Shown here piece after piece: positions 47,232 to 59,277 of a stretch of DNA of 64,000 bases; the first letter of the stretch is position 1; each line of letters starts with the position of its first letter. Origin of the DNA: the human T2T-CHM13v2.0 reference genome, Homo sapiens; the NCBI RefSeq assembly GCF_009914755.1, contig NC_060931.1; one strand, 5' to 3'. A program made the translations under genes and the position numbers. The notes under the pieces are model-generated. The model did no database searches and was not told the origin of the DNA. It saw nothing but the letters and a program-made list of their open reading frames with translations.

Positions 47232-48941
47232 ACAGCAAAAAACATTGTATTGTTTTCCTGCAGTGTAGATAATGCCAAGGGGCAGTGTGCTGTCGTTAGT
47301 AACCATTGTCATGTGAATTTATGGAAAACAATTGTTATCTTAAAGTAACTTACCAATCTACCGTGGCTTCCCCCACCCACCCCCAGCCATCTTCCCACTT
47401 CCTTCTCTCCTTTCCCCCCCATCTCACCTCCATTTCTCTCTTTATTTTCTTTAATCCTCTCACTGTTCCTCTGAGGGTTTGAAGGAAGTCTTCACAGCAT
47501 CCTAAACCACATGCACAATGACTCTAGAGTGAATCTAGCAAAAGACACGTTTTTAAAGGCAATGTTTTCTGAAATGTCTTTATTAAGATATAATTCACAG
47601 ACCGTAAAGTCCACCCATTTAAAGTGTACAAGTCTTTGATTTTAAGGATATTCACAGAATTGTGCAACCAGCCCCCAAATCTAAGTTTAGAATAGTTTTA
47701 CTCCCCCAAGGTTACTGTACACATTAGCAGTCACCCCTCACCCTCCCTTCTCACCTAACACCTAGGCAACCGTTTCCTATCTCTATAGATTTACGCATTC
47801 TGGATATTTCCTATATGAACAGTCACATAATATGTGATCTTTTGTGACTGGCTTCTTTTACTTATTATGATGTTTTAAAGATTCATCCTGTAGTTGGCTG
47901 TGTCAACACTTAATTCTGTTTTATTGCCAAACAGTATTTGATTGCATGGATATACCATATTTTTAATCCATTCATCACTTTATGGCCATTTAGATTGATT
48001 TTGGCTATTACGAATAATGCTCCTATCAACACTTGCGTGCGAGTGTTTGTGTGGACATACATTTTCTTTATCTTGAGTGTATTGCTAAGAATAGAATTTC
48101 TGAATAATGTGATAACTCCATGTTTAATATTTTGATAAACTTGCAAACTGTTTTCACACTCCCACCAGTATGAGAATTTTGATTTTACACATCCTCACCA
48201 AATCTTGTTATTATCTGTTTTTTTTTTATTATAGCCTAGAAAGTGTGAAGTGGTATCTCGTTGTGGTTGCAATTTGCATTTCCTGATAGCTGACAATATT
48301 AAGCATTCTTTTATGGGCTTATTGACCATATTTATATTTTTGGAGAATTATCTATTCATACCCCTTGCCCATTTTAAAATTAGGTTATCTGTCTTTTTGT
48401 TGTGAAATTTCTTTGTGTATTCTGGATATAAATCCTTGTCAAATATATAATTAAAAATGCTTTCTGCCATTTTGTGGATTCTCTTTTCACTTTCTTGATA
48501 GCGTTCTTTGGTGCACAAGTTTTTAATTTTGATGAAGTTTAGCTTATCTAATTTTCTTTGGTTGCTTATGCTTTTGGTGTTATATCTAAGAAACTATTGT
48601 CTAATCTAAGGTCACAAAGAATTGCACCTATGTTTTCTTCTAAGAGTTTTGTAGTTTTAGCTCTACATTTAGGACTTTGGTCCATCTTGAGTTAATTTTT
48701 GTATGCGTTGTGAGGTAGAGTCCAAATGTATTCTTTTGTATGTATATATACAGTTTTCCTAGTATCATTTATTGAAGAGACTATTCTTTCTCCATTTAAT
48801 TGTCCTCTAACCCTTGTTAAAAATCAATCAATCGTAAATGTGAGGCTTTGTTTCTGGATTCTTGGTTCTATCCCATAGATCTATATATCTATCCCTATGC
48901 TAGGACCATGCAGTCTTGCTTACTGTAGCTTTGTAATAGTT

Positions 48942-49250
48942 TTATTTTTTTATTTTTATTTTTTGAGACAGGGTCTCACTCTTTCATCCAGGCTGGAGTG
49001 TGGTGGTGTGATCACTGCTCACTGCAGCCTCGAATACCTGAGCTCAGTTGATTTTCCCACCTTAGCCTCCTGAGTAGCTGGGACTACAGGTACGTGCATC
49101 ACTATGCCCGGCTAATTTTTTGTACTTTTTATAGAGATGGGGTTTCACTATTTTGCCCAGACTGGTCTCAAACTCCTGGTCTCAAGCGATCTGCCTGCCT
49201 CAGCCTGCCATGGTGCTGGGATTACAGGCGTGAGCCACCATGCACAGCCC
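48942..49250 (-). mobile_element. AluJ
   Basis: J diagnostics; TSD tgtaatag(g)ttt. Confidence 0.92.
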
Positions 49251-49681
49251 TGTAATAGGTTTTGAAATCAGGAAGTGTGAGTCCTCCAACTGTTATTTTT
49301 AAACATTGTTTTGCTTATATTGGGGATATTGTAATTATATTTCCATATGAATTTTAGAATCAGATGGTCAGTTTCTATAAAAAAAAGGCAGCTAGGATTT
49401 TGACAGTGATTAAATCTGTACGTGAATTTGGGAATATTGTCATGTTAATGTTAACTCTTTCAAGGCATGATCACAGAATATCTTTCAATTTATTTAGATC
49501 TTTAGTTTATTTTAAAAATATTTTGTAGCTTTCAGCGTACAAGTCTTGCACTTTTTTGATTAATTTTATTCCAAAGTATTTTACTCTTTTTTTGGTGCTA
49601 TTAAAATGAAACTATTTTCCTAATTTAAATTTGAGATTGTTCACTGTTAGTGTATAGAAGCACAATTGATTTTTATTTTCT

Positions 49682-50018
49682 TATACAGAAAGAGGTTTAT
49701 TTGGCTCACAGTTCTGCAGGCTGTACAAGAAGCATGGAACCAGCATTTGCTTCTGGTGAGGGCTTCAGGTTGCTTGCACTCCTGGTGGAAGGGGAAGGGA
49801 AGCCAGCATGTGCAGACGTTAGTGGTGAGAGAGGAAGCCAGAGAGAGAAAGGGAGGGAGGACATGTCAGACTCGTCTTAATAGCAGGCTTTCATGGGAAC
49901 TAATAGGGCAAGAACTCACTCATTACTGTGATGATGGCGCCGAGCCACTGATGAGGGATCTGCCCTCGTGACCCAAACACCTCCCATTAGGCCCCCAACT
50001 CCAACATTGGGATCAAAT
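49682..50018 (-). mobile_element. MST LTR fragment lacking both termini (putative L1 3' transduction). Strand shown is the LTR sense.
   Basis: On the minus strand it begins at aaatttgatccc and ends ~14 nt after AATAAA (49696-49701). Confidence 0.85.
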
Positions 50019-53000
50019 TTTTTTTTAAACATTTTAAAACATTTTAAAATTTTAAGTTCTGTGGTGCATGTGCGGGATGTGGAGGTTTGTTACATAGGTA
50101 AACGTGTGCCATGGTGGCTTGCTGCATCCATCAACCCGTCACCTAGGTATTATGCCCAACATGCATTAGCTATTTTTCCTGATATTCTCCCTCTCCCTGA
50201 CCCTCTACCGACAGGCCCCGGTGTGTGTTATATCCCTCCCTATGTCCATGTGTTCTCATTGTTCAGCTTCCACTTATAAGTGAGAACGTGTGGTGTTTGG
50301 TTTTCTGTTCTTGTGTTAGTTTGCTGAGGATAATGGCTTCCATCTCCATGCATGTCTCTGAAAAGGACATGATTTCATTCATTTTTATGGCTGCATAGTA
50401 TTCCATGATGTATATGTACCACATTTTCTTTATCCAGTCTATCACTGATGGGCATTTGGGTTGATTCCACGTCTTTGCTATTGTGAATAGTGCTGCAGTG
50501 AACATACACATGCATGTGTGTCTTTATGCTAGAATAATTTATATTCCTTTGGATATATATTCAGTAATAGCATTGCTGGGTCAAATGATATTTCTGGTTC
50601 TAGATTTTTGAAGAGTCGTCACACCGTCTTCCACAGTGATTGAAATGATTTACATTTCCACTAACAGTGTAAGTGTTCCTATTTATCTGCAACTTTGCCA
50701 GCATCTGTTGTTTCTTGACTTTTTAATAATTACCATTCTGACTGGTGTGAGATAGTATCTCATTGTGGTTTTGATTTGCATTTCTCTAATGATCAGTGGT
50801 GTTGAGCTTTGTTTCATGTTCATTGGCCACATGTATGTCTTCTTTGGAGAAGTGTCTGTTTATGTCCTTTGCCCACTTTTTAAAAAATTATTACTTCAAC
50901 TTTATTTATCTTTGAATTTTTTATTTCCATAGGTTTTTGGGGAATAGGCGGTTTTTTGTTACATTAATAACTTGTTTAGCGGTGATTTGTGAGATTTTGG
51001 TGCACCCACCACCTGAGCAGTATACGCTGTACCCAGTGTGTAGTCTTTTATCCCTCACCCCATTCCCATACTTTTTTTCGAGTCTCTAAAGTCCGTTGTA
51101 TCATTCTTATGCTTTTGCATCTTCATAGCTGAGCTCCCACTTGTAAGTGAGAACATACCATGTTTGCTTTTCTATTCCTGAGTTATTTCACTTAGAATGA
51201 CAGTCTCCAATCCCATCCAGGTTGCTGCAAATGTCATTAATTCATTCCCTTTTGTGGCTGAGTAGTATTCCCTCATATATACACACCACAGTGTCTTTAT
51301 CCACTCATCGATTGATGGGGATTTGGGCTGGCTCCACATTTTTGCAATTGTGAATTGTGCTGCTGTAAACATGTGTGTGCAAGTATCTTTTTTGTATACT
51401 GATTTCTTTTTCTTTGAATAGATACCCAGTAGTGAGATTGCTGGATCAAATGGTAGATCTACTTTTAGTTCTTTAAGGAATCTCCACACTGTTTTCCATA
51501 GTGGTTGTACTAGTTTACATTCCTACCAGCAGTGTAGAAGTGTTCCCTTTTCACCGCATCCATGCCAACATCTATTATTTTTTGATTTTCTGATAATAGT
51601 CATTCTTGCCAGTGGTAAGGTGGTATCACATTATGGTTTTGATTTGCATTTCCCTGATCATTAGTGATGTTGAGCATTTTATCATATGTTTGTTGGCCAT
51701 TTGTTTATATTCTTTTGAAAATTGTCTATTCATGTCCTTAGCCCACTTTTTGATGTGATTGTTTGCTTTTTTCTTACTGATTTGTTTGAGTTCATTGTAC
51801 AGTCTGGATATTAGTCCTTTGTCAGATGTATAGATTGTGAAGATTTTCTCCCACTCTGTGGGTTGTGTGTTTACTTTGCTGACTGTTCCTTTTGCCCTGC
51901 AAAAAGCTTTTTAGTTTAATTAATTCCCATCTATTTATCTTTGTTTTTGTTGCATTTGCTTTTGGGTTCTTAGTTATGAAGTCTTTGCCTAAGCCAGTGT
52001 CTAGAAGGGTTTTTACGATGTTACCTTCTAGAATTTTTGTGGTTTCACATCTTAGATTTAAGTCCTTGATACACTTTGAGTTGACTTTTGTATAAGGTGA
52101 AAAATAAGGATCCAGTTTCATTCTCCTACATGTGGCTAGCCAATTATTCCAGCACCATTTGTTGAATAGGGTGTCCTTTCCCCACTTTATGTTTTTGTTT
52201 GCTTTATTAAAGATCAGTTGGCTGTAAATATTTGGGTTTATTTCTGGGTTCTCTATTCTGTTCCATTGGCCTATGTGCCTATTTTTATACCAGTACCAGG
52301 CTGTTTTGGTGACTGTGGCCTTATAGTACAGTTTGAAATCAGGTAATGTGATGCCTCCAGATTTGTTCTTTTTGTTTAGTCTTGCTTTGGCTATGTGGGC
52401 TCTTTTCTGGTTTTATATGAATTTTAGAATTTTTTTCAAGTTCTGTGAAGAATAATAGTGGTATTTTGGTGGAAATTGCATTGAATTTGTACATTGCTTT
52501 TGGCAGTATGGTCATTTTTACAATATTGATTCTACTTATCCATGATCATGGGATTTGTTTCCATTTGTTTGTGTCATTGATAATTTCTTTAAGCAGGGTT
52601 TTGTAGTTTTCGTTGTAGAGGTCTTTCACCTCCTTGGTTAGGTATATTCCTAAGTATTTTATTGTTTTCTGCAGCTATTGTAAAAGTGGTTGAGTTCTTG
52701 ATTTGATTCTCAGCTTGGTCACTGTTGGTGTATAGCAGAGCTACTGATGTGTGTACATTAATTTTGTATCCTGAAACTTTGCTGAATTTATTTATCAGCT
52801 TTAGGAGCTTTTTGGAGGAGTCTTTAGGGTTTTCTAGGTATACTATCATATCATCAGCAAATAGTGACAGTTTGACTTCCTCTTTACTGATTTGGATGAC
52901 CTTTATTTCTTTCTCTTGTCTGATTGCTCTGGCTAGGATTTCCAGGAATATGTTGAAGACTAGTGGTGAGAGTGGGCATCCTTGTCTTGTTCCAGTTCTT

Positions 53001-56000
53001 AGAGGGAATTCTTTCAACTTTTCCCCATTCAGTATTATGTTGGCTGTGGGTTTATCACAGATGGCTTTTATCACATTGAGACATGTCCCTTTTATGCCAA
53101 TTTTGCTGAGGGTTTAAATCATAAAGGATGCTGGCTTTTTTCAGATACTTTTTCTGCATCTATTGAGATGATCATGAGATTTTTGTTTCTAATTCTCTTT
53201 ATGTGGTGTACCACATTTATTGACTTGCATATGTTAAACCATCCCTGCATCTTTGGTATGAAATCTACTTGATCATGGTGGATTATCTTTCTGATACGCT
53301 GTTGGATTTGGTTAGCTAGTATTTTGTTAAGGATTTTTGCATCTATGTTCGTCAGGGATATTGGTCTGTAGTTTTCTTTTTTGGTTATGTCCTTTCCTGG
53401 TTTTGTATTAGGGTGATACTGGCTTCATAGAATGATTTAGGGAGGATTTCCTCTATCTTGTGGAATAGTGTCAACAGGATTAATACCAATTCTTCTTTGA
53501 ATGTCTGGTAGAATTCAGCTGTGAATCCTTCTGGTCCTGGGCTGTTTTCTGTTGTTAATTTTTTAAATTACCATTTCAGTCTTGCTATTTGTTATTGGCC
53601 TGTTCAGGGTATCTAATTCTTCCTGATTTATGCTAGGAGGGTTGTATCTTTCCAGGAATTTATCCATCTCCTCTAGGTTTTCTAGTTTATGCATGTAAAG
53701 GTGTTCATAGTAACCTTGAATGATCTTTTGTATTTCTGAGGTGTCAATTGTAATATCTCCTGTTTCATTTCTAATTGAGCTTATTTGGATCTTCTCTCTT
53801 CTTTTCTTGGTTAATCTTGCTAATGGTCTATTAATTTTATGTTTTCAAAGAACCAGCTTTTTGCTTCATTTCTCTTTTGTATTTTGTTGTTGTTGTCATT
53901 TCAATTTCACTTAATTCTTCTCCGATCTTGGTTATTTCTTTTCCTCTGCTGGGTTTGGGTTTGGTTTGTTCATGTTTCTCTAGTTCCTTGAGGTGTGATC
54001 TTAGATTGTCTATTTGTGCTCTTTCAGACTTTCTGATGTAGGCATTTAAGACTATGAACTTTCCTTTTAGCACTGCCTTTTTTGAATCCCAGAAGTTTTG
54101 ATAGGTTGTGTCACTAATATTGTTCAGTTCAAAGAATTTCTAAATTTCTATCTTGATTTCATTGTTGACCTAATGATTATTCAGGAGCAGGTTATTTAAT
54201 TTCCATGTATTTGCATGGTTTTGAAGGTTCTTTTTGGAGTTGATTTACAGTTTTATTCCACTGTGGTCTGACAAAGTACTTGATATAACTTCAATTAAAT
54301 TTATTGACACTTGTTTTGTGGCCTATCATATGGTCTATCTTGGAGAAAGTTCCATGTGCTGGTGAATAGAATGTATATTCTGTGGTTGTGGGGTAGAATG
54401 TTCTGTAAATATCTAAGTTCACTTGTTCCAAGGCATAGTTTAAATCTATTGTTTCTTTGTTGACTCTCTGTCTTGATGACCTGTCTAGTGCTGTCAGTGG
54501 AGTAGTGAAGTCTTTGACTATTATTGTGTTGCTGTCTATCTAATTACTTAGGTCTAGCAGTAATTGTTTATAAATTTGGGAGTTCCAGTGTTAGGTGCAT
54601 ATATATATAGGACTGTGATATTTTCCTGTTGGACCAAGCCTTTTAACATTATATAATATCCCTCTTTGTCTTTTTTAAATGCTGTTGCTTTAAAGATTGT
54701 TTTGTCTGATATAAGAATAGCTACTCCTGCTTGCTTTTGGTGCCCATTTACATGGAATATCTTTTTCCATCCCTTTACCTTAAGTTTATGTGAGTCCTTA
54801 TATATTAGGTGAATCTCCTGAAGGCAGCAAATACTTGGTTGGTGAATTCTTAATCCTTCTGCAATTCTATATCTTTTAAGTGGAGCATTTAGGTCATTTA
54901 CATTCAACATTAGTATTGAGATGTGAGGTACTACTATTCCATTCATCCTGCTATTTGTTGCCTGTATACCCTGGGTTTTTTTATTTTTATTTTTGTTTTA
55001 TAGGTCCTGTGAGATTTATGCTTTAAGCAGGTTCTGTTTCAATGTGTTTCCAGTATTTGTTTCAAGATTATGAGCTCCTTTTAGCAGTTCTTGTAGTGCT
55101 GGCTTGGCAGTGCTGAATTCTCTCAACATTTGTTTATCTGAAAAAGACTGTTCTTTCTTTCATTGATGAAGCTTAGTCTTGCTGGATACAAAAATCTTGG
55201 CTGATAATTGTTTTGTTTAAGGAGGCTGAGTTAGGGCCACAGTGCTTCTGGCTTGCAGGGTTTCTGCTGAGAAATATGCTATGAATCTGATAGGTTTTCC
55301 TTTACAGGTTACCAATTCTTTCCTTTGTCTTAACTTTAGATAACCTGATGACAATTTGCCTAGGCAATAATCTTTTTGCGATGAATTTCCCAGGTTTTCT
55401 TTGAGCTTCTTGTATTTGGATGTCTAGGTCTCTAGCAAGTTTTCCTTGATTATTCACCCTGAATATGTTTTCCATACTTTTAGATTTTTCTTCTTCCTCA
55501 GGAACACCAATTATTCTTAGGTTTGGTCACTTAACATAATCCCAAATTTCTTGGAGATTTTGTTCATTCTTTAATTCTTTTTTTCTTTGTCTTTGTTGGA
55601 CTGGGTTAATTCAAAAACCTTGTCTTTGAGCTCTGAAGTTCTTTCTTCTGCTTGTTTGATTCAGTTGCTGAGACTTTCTAGAACATTTTGCATTTCTTTG
55701 TGTCCTTTATTTCCTGAAATTGTGATTGTCTTTGATTTATGCTGTCTATTTCACTGAAGTTTTCTCACCTTGTTTCTTTTATCATTTTTTTTATTTCCTT
55801 AAATTAGACTTCACGTTTCTCTTGTGCCTCCTTGATTTGCTTAATAATCAACCTTCTGAACCCTTTTTTAGGTAAATCAGGGATTTCTTCTTGTTTTGGA
55901 TCCATTGCTGGTGAGCTAGTGTGATTTTTGGGGAGTGCTAAAGAAACATGTTTTGTCATATTACCAGAATTGTTTTTCTGGTTCTTTCTCATTTGGGTAG

Positions 56001-58253
56001 GCTATGTCAGAGGGAAGATCTGGGGCTCAAGGCAACTATTCAGATTCAGTTGTCTCATGGAGTGTTCCCTTGATGTAGTTACTCCCTCTTTTCCTAGGGA
56101 TGTGGCTTCCTGAAAGCCCAGATGTAGTGATTGTTACTGCTCTTCTGGATCTAGCCACCCAGCAGGGCTACCAGGCTCCAGGCTCGTACTGGGGGCTGTC
56201 TGCACAGAGTCCTTTGATGTGAACTGTCTTCAGATCTCTGTCACGGGTACCAGCACCTGCTCCAGTGGAGGTGGCAGGGGAGTGAAAAGGACTCTGTGAG
56301 GGTCCTAGTTTTGGTTGTTTAATGCACTGTTTTTGTGATCTCCTGCCAGGAGGTGACACTTTCAAGACGGCACCAGCTGTAGTGTGTAGGGAGGATCACG
56401 AGGTGAGTGGGGCCTTAGAACTCCCAAGAGAATATGCCCTTTGTCTTCAGTTACCAGGGTGGGTAGGGAAGGACCATCAGATGGGGGCAGGGTTAGGCAT
56501 GTCTGAGCTCAGGCTCTCCTTGGGAGGGGCTTGCTGTGGCTGCTGTGTTGGCTAGAGGTGTGGTTTCCAGGTCAATGGAGTTATGTTCCCAGAAGGATTA
56601 TGGCTGCCTCTGTTGTGTCATGCAGGTTGTCAGGGATGTCGGGGAGAGCCGGCAGTTACAGGCCTCACCCAGTTCCCAAGCAAACCAAAAGGCTAGTCTC
56701 ACTCCCAACATGTCCACCACCCCCAGCAGCACCGAGTTTGTTTCTAGGCAGTGGGTGAGCAGGGCTGAGAATCTGCCCTTGGCTACCACCTATCCCCTGA
56801 GAAAGCAAGCAGGCCTTTTGTGCCTCTCCATCTGTTGAGTCTGCACACCGAATTCACACCCCCACCCCATGTTCTGGCCAAGAGACTTCACATTCAGTTG
56901 GAATTATCACAAAGTTCAGCTGGAGGTTTCCTTTTCCCTGTGGTCTTTTCTCAGTTCCTCTGGCAGCCCTCCCCAAAGATCTCTGTGAGACAAGGCAGAA
57001 ACAGCTTCCCAGGGTACCTAGAGAGCCCAGAGGGCTTTTCCTGCTGCTTCGTCTACTCCTGTATTTCTCTAGGCTCTCTAATTTGACCCAGCTCCAGGTA
57101 AGGTCTAGACCTTTAGGTTCCCCAGTGAAGGTGTGTGTCCAGGGGCAATGATCCCCCTTTCCCACTTTCACAGCTTGGACACTCACAGTGTTTGGGGGGT
57201 GTCTTCTGGGTCCTGCAGGAGCAATCTGCTTCCATCAGAGGGTCTGTGGATTCTCTCAGCTTTCCTGGTATATTCCTACAATAGTTCTGGAGCAAAAGTT
57301 CACGATGTGGGTCTCCACACGCTGCTCTCCTGTCCGAGTGGGAGTTGCAATCTAGTCCTGCCTCCTATTTCATTGCCCACTTTTTAATGGGGTTGCTTAT
57401 GTTTTTTCTTGTCAGTTTGTTTAAGTTCCTTGTAGACTCTGGATATTAGACCTTTGTCAGATGGATAGATTGCAAAAATTTTCTCCCATTCTGTAGGTTG
57501 TCTGTTCACTTCGATGATAGTTTCTTTTGTTGTGTAGAAGCTCTTTAGTTTAATTAGATCCCATTTGTCAATTTTTGCTTTTGTTGCAATTGCTTTTGGT
57601 GTTTTCATCATGAAATCGTTGCTCATGCCTATGTCCTGAATGATATTGCCTAGATTTTCTTGTAGGGTCTTTATAGCTTTGGGTTTTACATTTAAGTCTT
57701 TAATCCATCCTGAGTTAATTCTTGTATAAGGTGTAAAAAAGTGGTCTAGTTTCAATTTTCTGTATATGGCTAGCCAGTTCTCCCAGCACCATTTATTAAT
57801 TAGGAAATCCTTTCTCCATTGCTTGTTTTTGTCAGGTTTATCAAAGAGCAGATGGTTGTAGATGTGCGGTCTTATTTCTGAGTTCTCTATTCTGTTCCAT
57901 TGGTCTATGTGTCTGTTTTTGGTACCAATACCATACTGTTTACAGTTGGTTACTGTAGCCTTTTAGTATAGTTTGAGGTTGGGTAGCATGATGCCTCCAG
58001 CTTTGTTCTTTTTGCTTCAGACTATCTTGGCTATCTGGGCTCTTTTTTGGTTCCATATGAATTTTAAAATGGTTTTTTCTAATTCTGTGAAGATTGTCAA
58101 TAAAGGAAGTGAAGGACTTCTTCAAGGAGAATTGTAAACCACTGCTTAAGGAAATCAGAGAGGACACAAACAAATGGAAAAACATTCCATGTTCATGGAT
58201 AGGAAGAATCAATATTGTGAAAATGACTACACTGCCCGAAGTAATTTATAGAT
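50019..58253 (-). mobile_element. 5'-truncated and inverted L1PA (PA8-PA11-like): body 50019-50883 and 57373-58101, inverted piece 58102-58253
   Basis: L1PA 3'UTR and ORF2 sequence is colinear across the nested L1PB; orientation flips at 58101/58102. Confidence 0.9.
50884..57372 (-). mobile_element. Full-length L1PB (PB1-like), ~6.5 kb, degenerate
   Basis: PB-type 3'UTR (ttccataggtttttgggga...gtgatttgtgagattttggtgcaccc) and 5'UTR (aggaggcaggactagattgcaactcccac); ORF1/ORF2 remnants including LFADDM; 15-bp TSD ttgcccactttttaa at 50869-50883 and 57373-57387. Confidence 0.92.
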
Positions 58254-58420
58254 ACAGTTGATTTTTAAATACCGACTTCATATCCTATAACATTGCTGAA
58301 CCGATTTATTAATTCTAGTAATTTTTTGTGCATTCCATAGAGTTTTCTATGTATAAGATCATGTCCTCTACAAATAGAGATAATTTTAATTCTTTCTTTC
58401 CAATCTAGATACTACTTACT

Positions 58421-58462
58421 TCTTCTTCTTTTTTTTTTTTTTTTGTGGGGGGGGGGGGGGGG
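58421..58462. repeat. poly-T followed by a G16 homopolymer
   Basis: G run at 58447-58462. Confidence 0.95.
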
Positions 58463-59277
58463 CCTGGCTAGAACCTCCAGAACAGTAATGAATTGAAGTG
58501 GTAATAGTGAACATTTGTGTCTTATTCCAAATCTTAGGAAGCATTCAGTCTATAACATTTAAGTAGGATGTTATCTATGGGCTTTTTATAGATGCCCTTT
58601 ATCAGCTTAACAAAATTTACTTCCATTCCTAGTTTATTGATTAATTTTATATGAAAATATATTGAATTTTGTCAAACCTTTTTTGTGTCTATTGAGATGA
58701 TCATGTGTTTTTTGTTCTTTATTCTATTAATATGGCATTATATTTATTAGTTTTTGGATGTTAAACTGATATTAAATGCCTGGTATAAATCCCACTTGGT
58801 CATAGTGTATAATTCTTTATATATTTGCTGGATTTAGTTTTCTAGTATTTTGTTGAGAATTTTTGCATGTATAATGATAAAATGTATTAGTCTATAGTTT
58901 TCTTGTGATATCTTTATTTGGTTTTGATATCAGTGTAATAATGAAATGAGATGAAAAGTATTATTTCATCTTATTCAGAAGGGTTTGCAAAGAATTATTA
59001 TTAATTATTCTTTTACTATTTGATAGAATTCACTAAGAAAGCCATCTGGGCTTTTCTGAGAGGAAATTTAAAAAATTACTAATTTAGTGTCTTTACCTGT
59101 TATAGGTCTATATAGATTTTCTGTTTATGCTTGAGTCAGTTTCATTAGTTTTTCTTTCCAGATATACGTCCATTTCATCTAAATTCTCAAATTATTTGGC
59201 ATACAATTACTTATAATATTTCTTTATAATCCTTTTTATTTTTGAAAGGATAGCATGATGTTCCCACTTGTTTAAAT

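What the first reader, a model, noticed from the sequence alone, without database searches (positions are those of the whole stretch)
49662..58267. L1 3' transduction of an MST LTR, terminated at the LTR's own poly(A) signal
Seen: a near-perfect 14-bp duplication aca(a/g)ttgattttta (49662-49675 and 58254-58267, with a TTTTT/AA endonuclease site) brackets both the L1PA and a 330-bp MST fragment. On the minus strand the order is L1 body, A-rich tail (~50019-50050), MST piece missing its 5' terminus, AATAAA (49696-49701), about 14 nt, second A-rich tail, TSD. The MST piece has neither TG/CA terminus nor its own 5-bp TSD. Inference: the source L1 sat inside an MST LTR elsewhere, read through its weak poly(A) site and used the LTR's signal, moving LTR sequence by LINE machinery. 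Repeat annotators would miss this because the transduced DNA is itself a repeat.
Basis: partly seen in the sequence, partly recalled or inferred. Interest (0 to 1): 0.75.

Follow-up and report, generated by a model that had tools for sequence, protein, structure and literature searches.

The report
Parentless L1 transduction of MST LTR
An old jumping-gene (LINE-1) insertion carries a 340-base piece copied from a retrovirus-like repeat on another contig, likely because a since-lost LINE-1 read through into that repeat and stopped at its poly(A) signal; this is a known, recurrent kind of event.

Summary
A 13-14-bp target duplication (49662/58254) brackets a minus-strand L1, its A-rich tail, a ~340-bp MST LTR piece ending 13 nt after AATAAA, and a second A-tail. 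I traced the MST piece to one solo LTR at C6:149,922,701-149,923,130 (87-91% identity against at most 84% for other pairs; sister pair 97/96). That donor has no L1 at the junction, so the predicted L1-interrupted source is not in this genome. Best reading: a 'parentless' 3' transduction from a source L1 that was likely never fixed (0.72). Four other MST LTRs carry L1 tails at the same LTR position. One narrow pattern found three more L1-tail/MST/poly(A) inserts, and both donors I could trace are also empty. Template switching is not excluded (0.13). Precedents are in print: an IAP LTR transduced by a mouse L1, parentless transductions, and HERV-W retrocopies ending at the LTR poly(A) site. New member of a known kind; low interest.

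The parts
49662..49674 (.). Target-site duplication of the whole insert, copy at the element's 3' end (13 bp; 14 with 49675)
49675..49682 (-). Second, decayed A-rich tail added after the MST piece
49681..50020 (-). MST LTR piece (donor LTR positions 43-380 of 430; no 5' terminus, no U5), copied from G000:C6:149922701-149923130
49696..49701 (-). AATAAA of the LTR, 13 nt upstream of the last non-A templated base
50018..50051 (-). First A-rich tail, belonging to the outer L1; patterned, no AATAAA left; its last three A's overlap the MST match
50052..50868 (-). Outer L1 3' end (L1PA10-like; subfamily name recalled)
50869..50883 (.). 15-bp TSD of the nested L1, first copy
   Evidence: 2 exact matches, 0.05 expected
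50884..57372 (-). Later nested, full-length but decayed L1 (L1PB1-like; name recalled) with ORF1, endonuclease and RT remnants
   Evidence: (38 of 39 non-self hits start at query 132-138, about window 57368)
57373..57387 (.). 15-bp TSD of the nested L1, second copy
57388..58098 (-). Outer L1 ORF2 part, continuing the 3' piece
   Evidence: colinear on the nested L1 used as a ruler
58099..58253 (+). 5' inverted piece of the outer L1 (twin-priming geometry; about 28 nt lost at the break)
   Evidence: (I1)
58254..58266 (.). Target-site duplication, copy at the element's 5' end; followed by AA (TTTTT/AA)
48500..49661 (-). Older host L1 fragment, left of the insert (extends further; holds an Alu at about 48940-49250)
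58267..58950 (-). Older host L1 fragment, right of the insert

Best explanation
One L1-type insertion carries, between two tails and inside one target duplication, a piece copied from the MST solo LTR on contig C6; it likely arose when a source L1 sitting about 42 nt inside that LTR read through its own 3' end, was polyadenylated at the LTR's signal, and was likely later lost as an unfixed allele. Shown: one TSD around L1 and MST, two tails, an end 13 nt after AATAAA with U5 missing, the identity of the donor, an empty donor today, a 5' inversion, and a later nested full-length L1. Inferred: the source L1 at C6, the read-through, twin priming as cause of the inversion, and loss of the source by drift.
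For: Donor: 88% against 76-80% for the other 39 non-self matches; the reciprocal search gives 88% against 70-82%; 284/319 = 0.890 against mean 0.782, sd 0.021, maximum 0.835 for the other 594 of 595 pairs; sister pair at 97/96 with tips 0.086 and 0.053 against a median of 0.14; a 32-mer drawn from the pair has no third match at <=2 mismatches. Timing fits one event: the outer L1 is 82.9-87.7% identical to 14 of 14 family members tested, about the donor-copy distance. The junction is a site that L1 uses: L034 has an L1 with a TSD and the upstream LTR part at the homologous position, and L089-L091 have L1 tails joined there with the LTR running on into U5; the three compared are 75-80% identical to the window piece and L034 is not among the close matches, so none is the donor. 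The poly(A) site recurs: 5 of 23 pattern hits stop in an A-run 14-19 nt after the hexamer and 3 of them follow an L1 tail. Both donors traced for those (180/189 and 190/191) are intact LTRs with TT/AAAA at the junction. Empty sources are common in print: 17 of 18 in dog (PMC7980453, passages) and mouse Pde6c-cpfl1 (PMC6466679, passages).
Against: The source L1 is not seen: the donor is uninterrupted and the best outer-L1 match within 20 kb is 68%. No sibling insertion was found. The junction has a 3-nt A microhomology that a template switch would also leave. The donor junction reads TTG/AAAT, not the canonical TT/AAAA, and the window copy lacks the G seen at the start of the duplication in the four other L1s at this site. 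The rare-allele test is weak: 6 shared against a next-best 5 at one cut-off, and 8 against 9 for three other pairs at the looser cut-off. The tree bootstrap had not converged. Genome searches scored only 40 of thousands of candidates. No other primate genome could be read.
Confidence: 0.72

Rival explanations
1. Template switch or RNA-level joining: reverse transcription began on the poly(A) of some read-through RNA ending in the C6 LTR, then jumped at the AAA to the poly(A) tail of an unrelated L1 RNA. No L1 ever sat in the donor.
For: The donor is empty here and in both other traced cases, 3 of 3. All three junctions begin in an A-run. Template-switch chimeras are cited in PMC6500023 (passages).
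Against: It needs a switch plus twin priming in one event. The junction coincides with a position where four other LTRs hold L1s. L067 has a tail-spacer-tail-MST-tail build that suits serial transduction. In the chimeras I recall, L1 is the 3' partner, not the 5' one (recalled).
Confidence: 0.13
2. 3' transduction as above, but the source L1 was fixed and later removed cleanly by recombination between its TSDs or by conversion from another LTR.
For: It gives the same end state. The donor differs from the window copy at several bases just after the junction.
Against: Precise L1 removal is rare (recalled). It would have to explain 3 of 3 empty donors.
Confidence: 0.07
3. Two separate insertions: an orphan MST-ended retrocopy (HERV-W-like) first, then an L1 landing exactly at its 5' junction.
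For: LTR-ended retrocopies made by L1 exist (PMC5016936, passages). Nesting occurs at this very locus.
Against: No second TSD and no remnant of the first TSD lies between the L1 tail and the MST piece, or beyond the inverted end. The MST start coincides with a recurrent L1 insertion position.
Confidence: 0.05
4. An ordinary MST solo LTR inserted here, was interrupted by the L1, and lost both ends by deletion.
For: L1-in-MST insertions at this position exist.
Against: The host is colinear across one 13-bp TSD, with no LTR termini. The piece ends in an A-tail at the recurrent poly(A) site, and it is much closer to one distant copy than family members are to each other.
Confidence: 0.03

Closest known systems
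L1 3' transduction, 'parentless' type (dog: PMC7980453; mouse Pde6c-cpfl1: PMC6466679; passages read)
   Same: L1 3' end, tail, foreign segment, second tail, one TSD; the donor locus has no L1 in the reference.
   Different: Here the event is old and apparently long fixed, the transduced segment is entirely an LTR, and a later full-length L1 splits the element.
Mouse Lama2 dy-Pas: L1 that transduced an IAP LTR and was polyadenylated within it (PMC6466679, passages)
   Same: LTR sequence moved by L1 read-through and ended at the LTR's own poly(A) site.
   Different: There the IAP lies inside the source L1 and the source is still present; here the L1 would have lain inside an MST LTR and is gone.
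HERV-W processed pseudogenes (PMC5016936, passages)
   Same: 3' end has the U3-R form without U5, a poly(A) tail, a TT/AAAA target and a 5-15-bp TSD.
   Different: Those are proviral RNAs moved in trans with no L1 body; here an L1 body and tail precede a solo-LTR piece.
5'-inverted L1 by twin priming (PMC2912911, passages)
   Same: Inverted 5' piece whose TSD-side end lies next to the start of the sense piece; about 31% of recent L1 insertions in that paper's table.
   Different: Nothing essential.

Membership tests
L1 3' transduction | One TSD brackets both the L1 and the extra segment | tested here: met
   13/14-bp duplication at the host break
L1 3' transduction | L1 endonuclease target (TTTT/AA) at the insertion site | tested here: met
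   TTTTT/AA at 58262-58268
L1 3' transduction | Order L1 3' end, A-tail, segment, poly(A) signal, A-tail | tested here: met
L1 3' transduction | The segment has an identifiable donor locus elsewhere | tested here: met
   C6:149922701-149923130; the rare-allele count alone is weak
L1 3' transduction | A source L1 lies directly upstream of the segment at the donor (met in 'parented', absent by definition in 'parentless' cases) | tested here: not met
   Donor intact; no close L1PA in 20 kb. Filed therefore only under the parentless type.
L1 3' transduction | Outgroup empty site lacks both L1 and segment | not testable with these tools
   No related genomes are held (header)
MST solo LTR inserted in place | Both LTR termini and a 5-bp TSD | tested here: not met
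   Only donor positions 43-380 of 430 are present; no termini at either end
LTR-ended processed pseudogene (HERV-W type) | U3-R end without U5, plus poly(A) | tested here: met
   same end in L062, L064, L067
LTR-ended processed pseudogene (HERV-W type) | Own TSD, no L1 body in the same insert | tested here: not met
   The TSD encloses the L1 too; no separate TSD for the MST piece
Twin-primed 5'-inverted L1 | Inverted piece adjacent in L1 coordinates to the sense piece, inside the TSD | tested here: met
   Ruler positions 1615-1760 (inverted) against 866-1576 (sense); about 28 nt gap after extending to the ends
Template-switch chimera | No L1 ever at the donor junction in any lineage | not testable with these tools
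   Needs primate assemblies; the human donor is empty

The most novel reading that the evidence does not exclude
MST/MaLR LTRs are a systematic trap for L1: they offer recurrent endonuclease sites and a downstream poly(A) signal. They have left an uncatalogued class of LTR-terminated, parentless transductions whose donors can be traced by private LTR sequence. Each would mark the exact place of a lost ancient source L1 (3 of 3 traced donors are empty), which would allow a genome-wide measure of how often active L1s failed to fix.
Probability: 0.35. Interest if true: 0.42.

Novelty: new member of a known kind. Interest (0 to 1): 0.2.

Why it matters
As a single locus it matters little: no gene or listed functional element overlaps it in the hub's table, and every step has precedent. 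Its value is as a worked case. A repeat-only transduction can be traced to one donor after long decay, and it fixes to within a few bases the place of an L1 that is no longer in the human reference. It also gives fossil evidence for the MST poly(A) site, and shows that a few MST 'fragments' in the genome are L1-made copies, not LTR insertions.

Tried and rejected
Looked for an L1-interrupted source: the junction-spanning search gave one hit of 39 non-self across the junction, L034, which is an independent short L1 in another MST LTR; rejected as source. The junction pattern gave 9 matches against 6 for the reversed control, so its count alone means nothing; I read 3 new ones (L089-L091), and left 4 unread (C1, C3, C5, C8). 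A nearby upstream source at C6 was rejected (best outer-L1 match 68% in 20 kb). The rare-shared-allele count barely separates the donor pair and is not relied on. L064's donor was not found (best 84%, its short flank unmatched). L062's TSD was not found within the held flank: the only candidate lies inside the L1 body. L075 and L076 end in A-runs but showed no TSD and no directly adjacent L1 tail; not counted as transductions. Pfam gave no match for 3 of 7 frames tested, and the endonuclease match is below the curated cut-off. Pickeral 2000 and Szak 2003 are not held in the library, so I did not read them. Earlier scan findings were not available.

Full report
1. Observation. The window is G000:C7:154256001-154320000. 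The duplication lies at 49662-49675 and 58254-58267; it is found twice in the window at <=1 mismatch, 0.29 expected, and 4 of 100 shuffles reach two. The count alone is modest. What makes it a TSD is that the flanks are two halves of one old L1 fragment, colinear across a single copy, and that the right copy reads TTTTT/AA on the + strand. On the minus strand the 3' end runs: L1 end, patterned A-rich tail (50051-50018), MST piece, AATAAA (49701-49696), 13 nt, short A-tail, TSD.

2. An exact 15-bp repeat at 50869-50883 and 57373-57387 (0.05 expected, 0 of 100 shuffles) brackets a second L1 of about 6.5 kb. It is full-length: 38 of 39 non-self hits begin at the same 5' boundary, about 57368, and its frames match Pfam L1 ORF1 (PF02994), RT (PF00078) and, below cut-off, endonuclease (PF03372); 4 of 7 frames tested had a match. 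It interrupts the outer L1, so it is the later event. The outer L1 also has a 155-bp inverted 5' piece (58099-58253) that maps next to the sense piece with about 28 nt lost, the twin-priming form described in PMC2912911 (passages). The original insert was thus about 2.1 kb of the 8.6-kb interval. Subfamily names (outer L1PA10-like, inner L1PB1-like, host L1M, MSTB/MSTB1-like) are recalled and come from no call.

3. The donor. The MST piece matches C6:149922751-149923086 at 88%; the other 39 non-self matches are 67-80%, all but one 76-80%. Searching with the C6 LTR returns the window copy at 88%, covering LTR positions 43-380 of 430, and the other 39 at 70-82%. A 32-base pattern drawn from the pair matches those two places by construction and no third at <=2 mismatches. 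In an alignment of the window piece with 34 natural copies (29 loci and 5 new ones), the pair has 284/319 = 0.890 identity, against mean 0.782, sd 0.021 and maximum 0.835 for the other 594 pairs; the tree joins them at 97/96 with tips of 0.086 and 0.053 against a median of 0.14, so they split well after family members did (bootstrap not converged). Other alignments give 293/338 and 303/334. Against this, rare shared alleles barely separate the pair: 6 against 5, and 8 against 9 at a looser cut-off. The outer L1 is 82.9-87.7% identical to 14 of 14 relatives tested, which fits one copying date for both parts.

4. The donor is empty. The C6 copy is a whole solo LTR of about 430 bases with a 4-of-5 duplication and degenerate termini, uninterrupted at the junction. 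The best match to the outer L1 in C6:149915001-149935000 is 68%. These searches scored 40 candidates each out of thousands, so absence is not proof.

5. Is the junction an L1 target? L034 (C19) has an L1 inside an MST LTR at the homologous position, with the upstream LTR part and a TSD. A junction pattern gave 9 matches (6 for the reversed control): the window, L034, three more L1 tails joined at this position with the LTR continuing into U5 (L089-L091; only the 3' side read; 75-80% identical to the window piece), and four not read.

6. Is the end the LTR's poly(A) site, and is the case unique? A pattern for the LTR hexamer region followed by A's gave 23 hits (0 for the control). In 17 of 23 the LTR continues into U5, in 1 an Alu follows, and in 5 it stops in an A-run 14-19 nt after the hexamer. 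Three of the 5 follow an L1 tail in the same direction: L064 (TSD 16/17), L067 (17-bp TSD, 5' inversion, extra spacer and tail) and L062 (TSD not within the held flank). Donors: L062 to L065, 180/189; L067 to L088, 190/191; both are intact LTRs with TT/AAAA at the junction and no L1 there. L064's donor was not found. With the window case, 3 of 3 traced donors are empty and 1 of 4 is untraced. The pattern was built to enrich such cases, so this is not a rate.

7. Mechanism. Most likely (0.72): an L1 inserted about 42 nt into the C6 LTR in the sense direction; a transcript ran through its 3' end and was cleaved at the LTR's signal; the RNA was inserted here at TTTTT/AA with twin priming; the source allele was lost; a full-length L1 later landed in the copy. 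The anatomy, the donor and its emptiness are shown. The source L1, the read-through and its loss are inferred. Rivals: template switch at the AAA (0.13), fixed source later removed (0.07), two insertions (0.05), LTR in place with deletions (0.03).

8. Comparison with what is known. I read passages only, no whole texts and no supplements. PMC6466679 describes a mouse L1 that transduced an IAP LTR and was polyadenylated within it, and a transduction whose source site has no L1 in sequenced strains. PMC7980453 reports 17 of 18 dog transductions as parentless. PMC5016936 describes HERV-W retrocopies with U3-R ends. bioRxiv 10.1101/2021.07.12.451456 lists 183 top-confidence L1 3' transductions in CHM13; its tables were not seen and may or may not hold this locus. 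PMC9311842 gives the general mechanism. PMC10735291 and PMC1794541 give MST ages. In the listings of seven searches I saw no title or abstract on MST-terminated L1 transductions as a class; subscription papers, including the early human surveys, are not in the library, so this is weak evidence of novelty.

9. Verdict. Real feature, correctly sensed, mechanism of a known kind. New member of a known kind; interest 0.2. The bolder reading, a traceable class that maps lost ancient source L1s, has probability 0.35 and would merit about 0.42.

Noticed in passing
window 50869-57387: Full-length decayed L1 with an exact 15-bp TSD nested in the outer L1; by recalled names an L1PB-type inside an L1PA-type, which fixes their order at this locus.
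   Followed up: partly
L067 (G000:C3:86361555-86362400) and donor L088 (G000:C3:123098677-123098867): Young L1 insert with 5' inversion, 17-bp TSD, a short spacer between two A-rich tails and an MST piece 190/191 identical to an empty donor: a likely serial transduction and the best case for finding a surviving source.
   Followed up: partly
L062 (G000:C1:33539697-33539900) and donor L065 (G000:C2:72373029-72373216): L1 tail, MST piece and poly(A); donor 180/189 identical, intact, TT/AAAA at the junction. TSD not seen in the held flank.
   Followed up: partly
L064 (G000:C1:240655254-240656665): 5'-truncated L1 with a 16/17 TSD carrying about 30 nt of flank and an MST LTR from its 5' terminus to the poly(A) site; donor not found.
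   Followed up: partly
L034, L089, L090, L091: Four MST LTRs with L1 tails joined at the same position about 40 nt from the LTR start: a recurrent L1 target site inside MST LTRs.
   Followed up: partly
L075 and L076: MST LTRs that stop in short A-runs at the poly(A) site without an adjacent L1 tail or a TSD found; possible orphan retrocopies or deletions.
   Followed up: no
L002 1500-1530 (donor LTR): The donor now has AGTAAA where the window copy keeps AATAAA, so the copy probably preserves the older signal.
   Followed up: no
L014, L026, L049: Three MST copies form a supported group (95/96) with long tips, suggesting a sub-lineage within the family.
   Followed up: no
G000:C7:92920421-92921181: Two MST matches lie about 30 bases apart in opposite orientations.
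   Followed up: no
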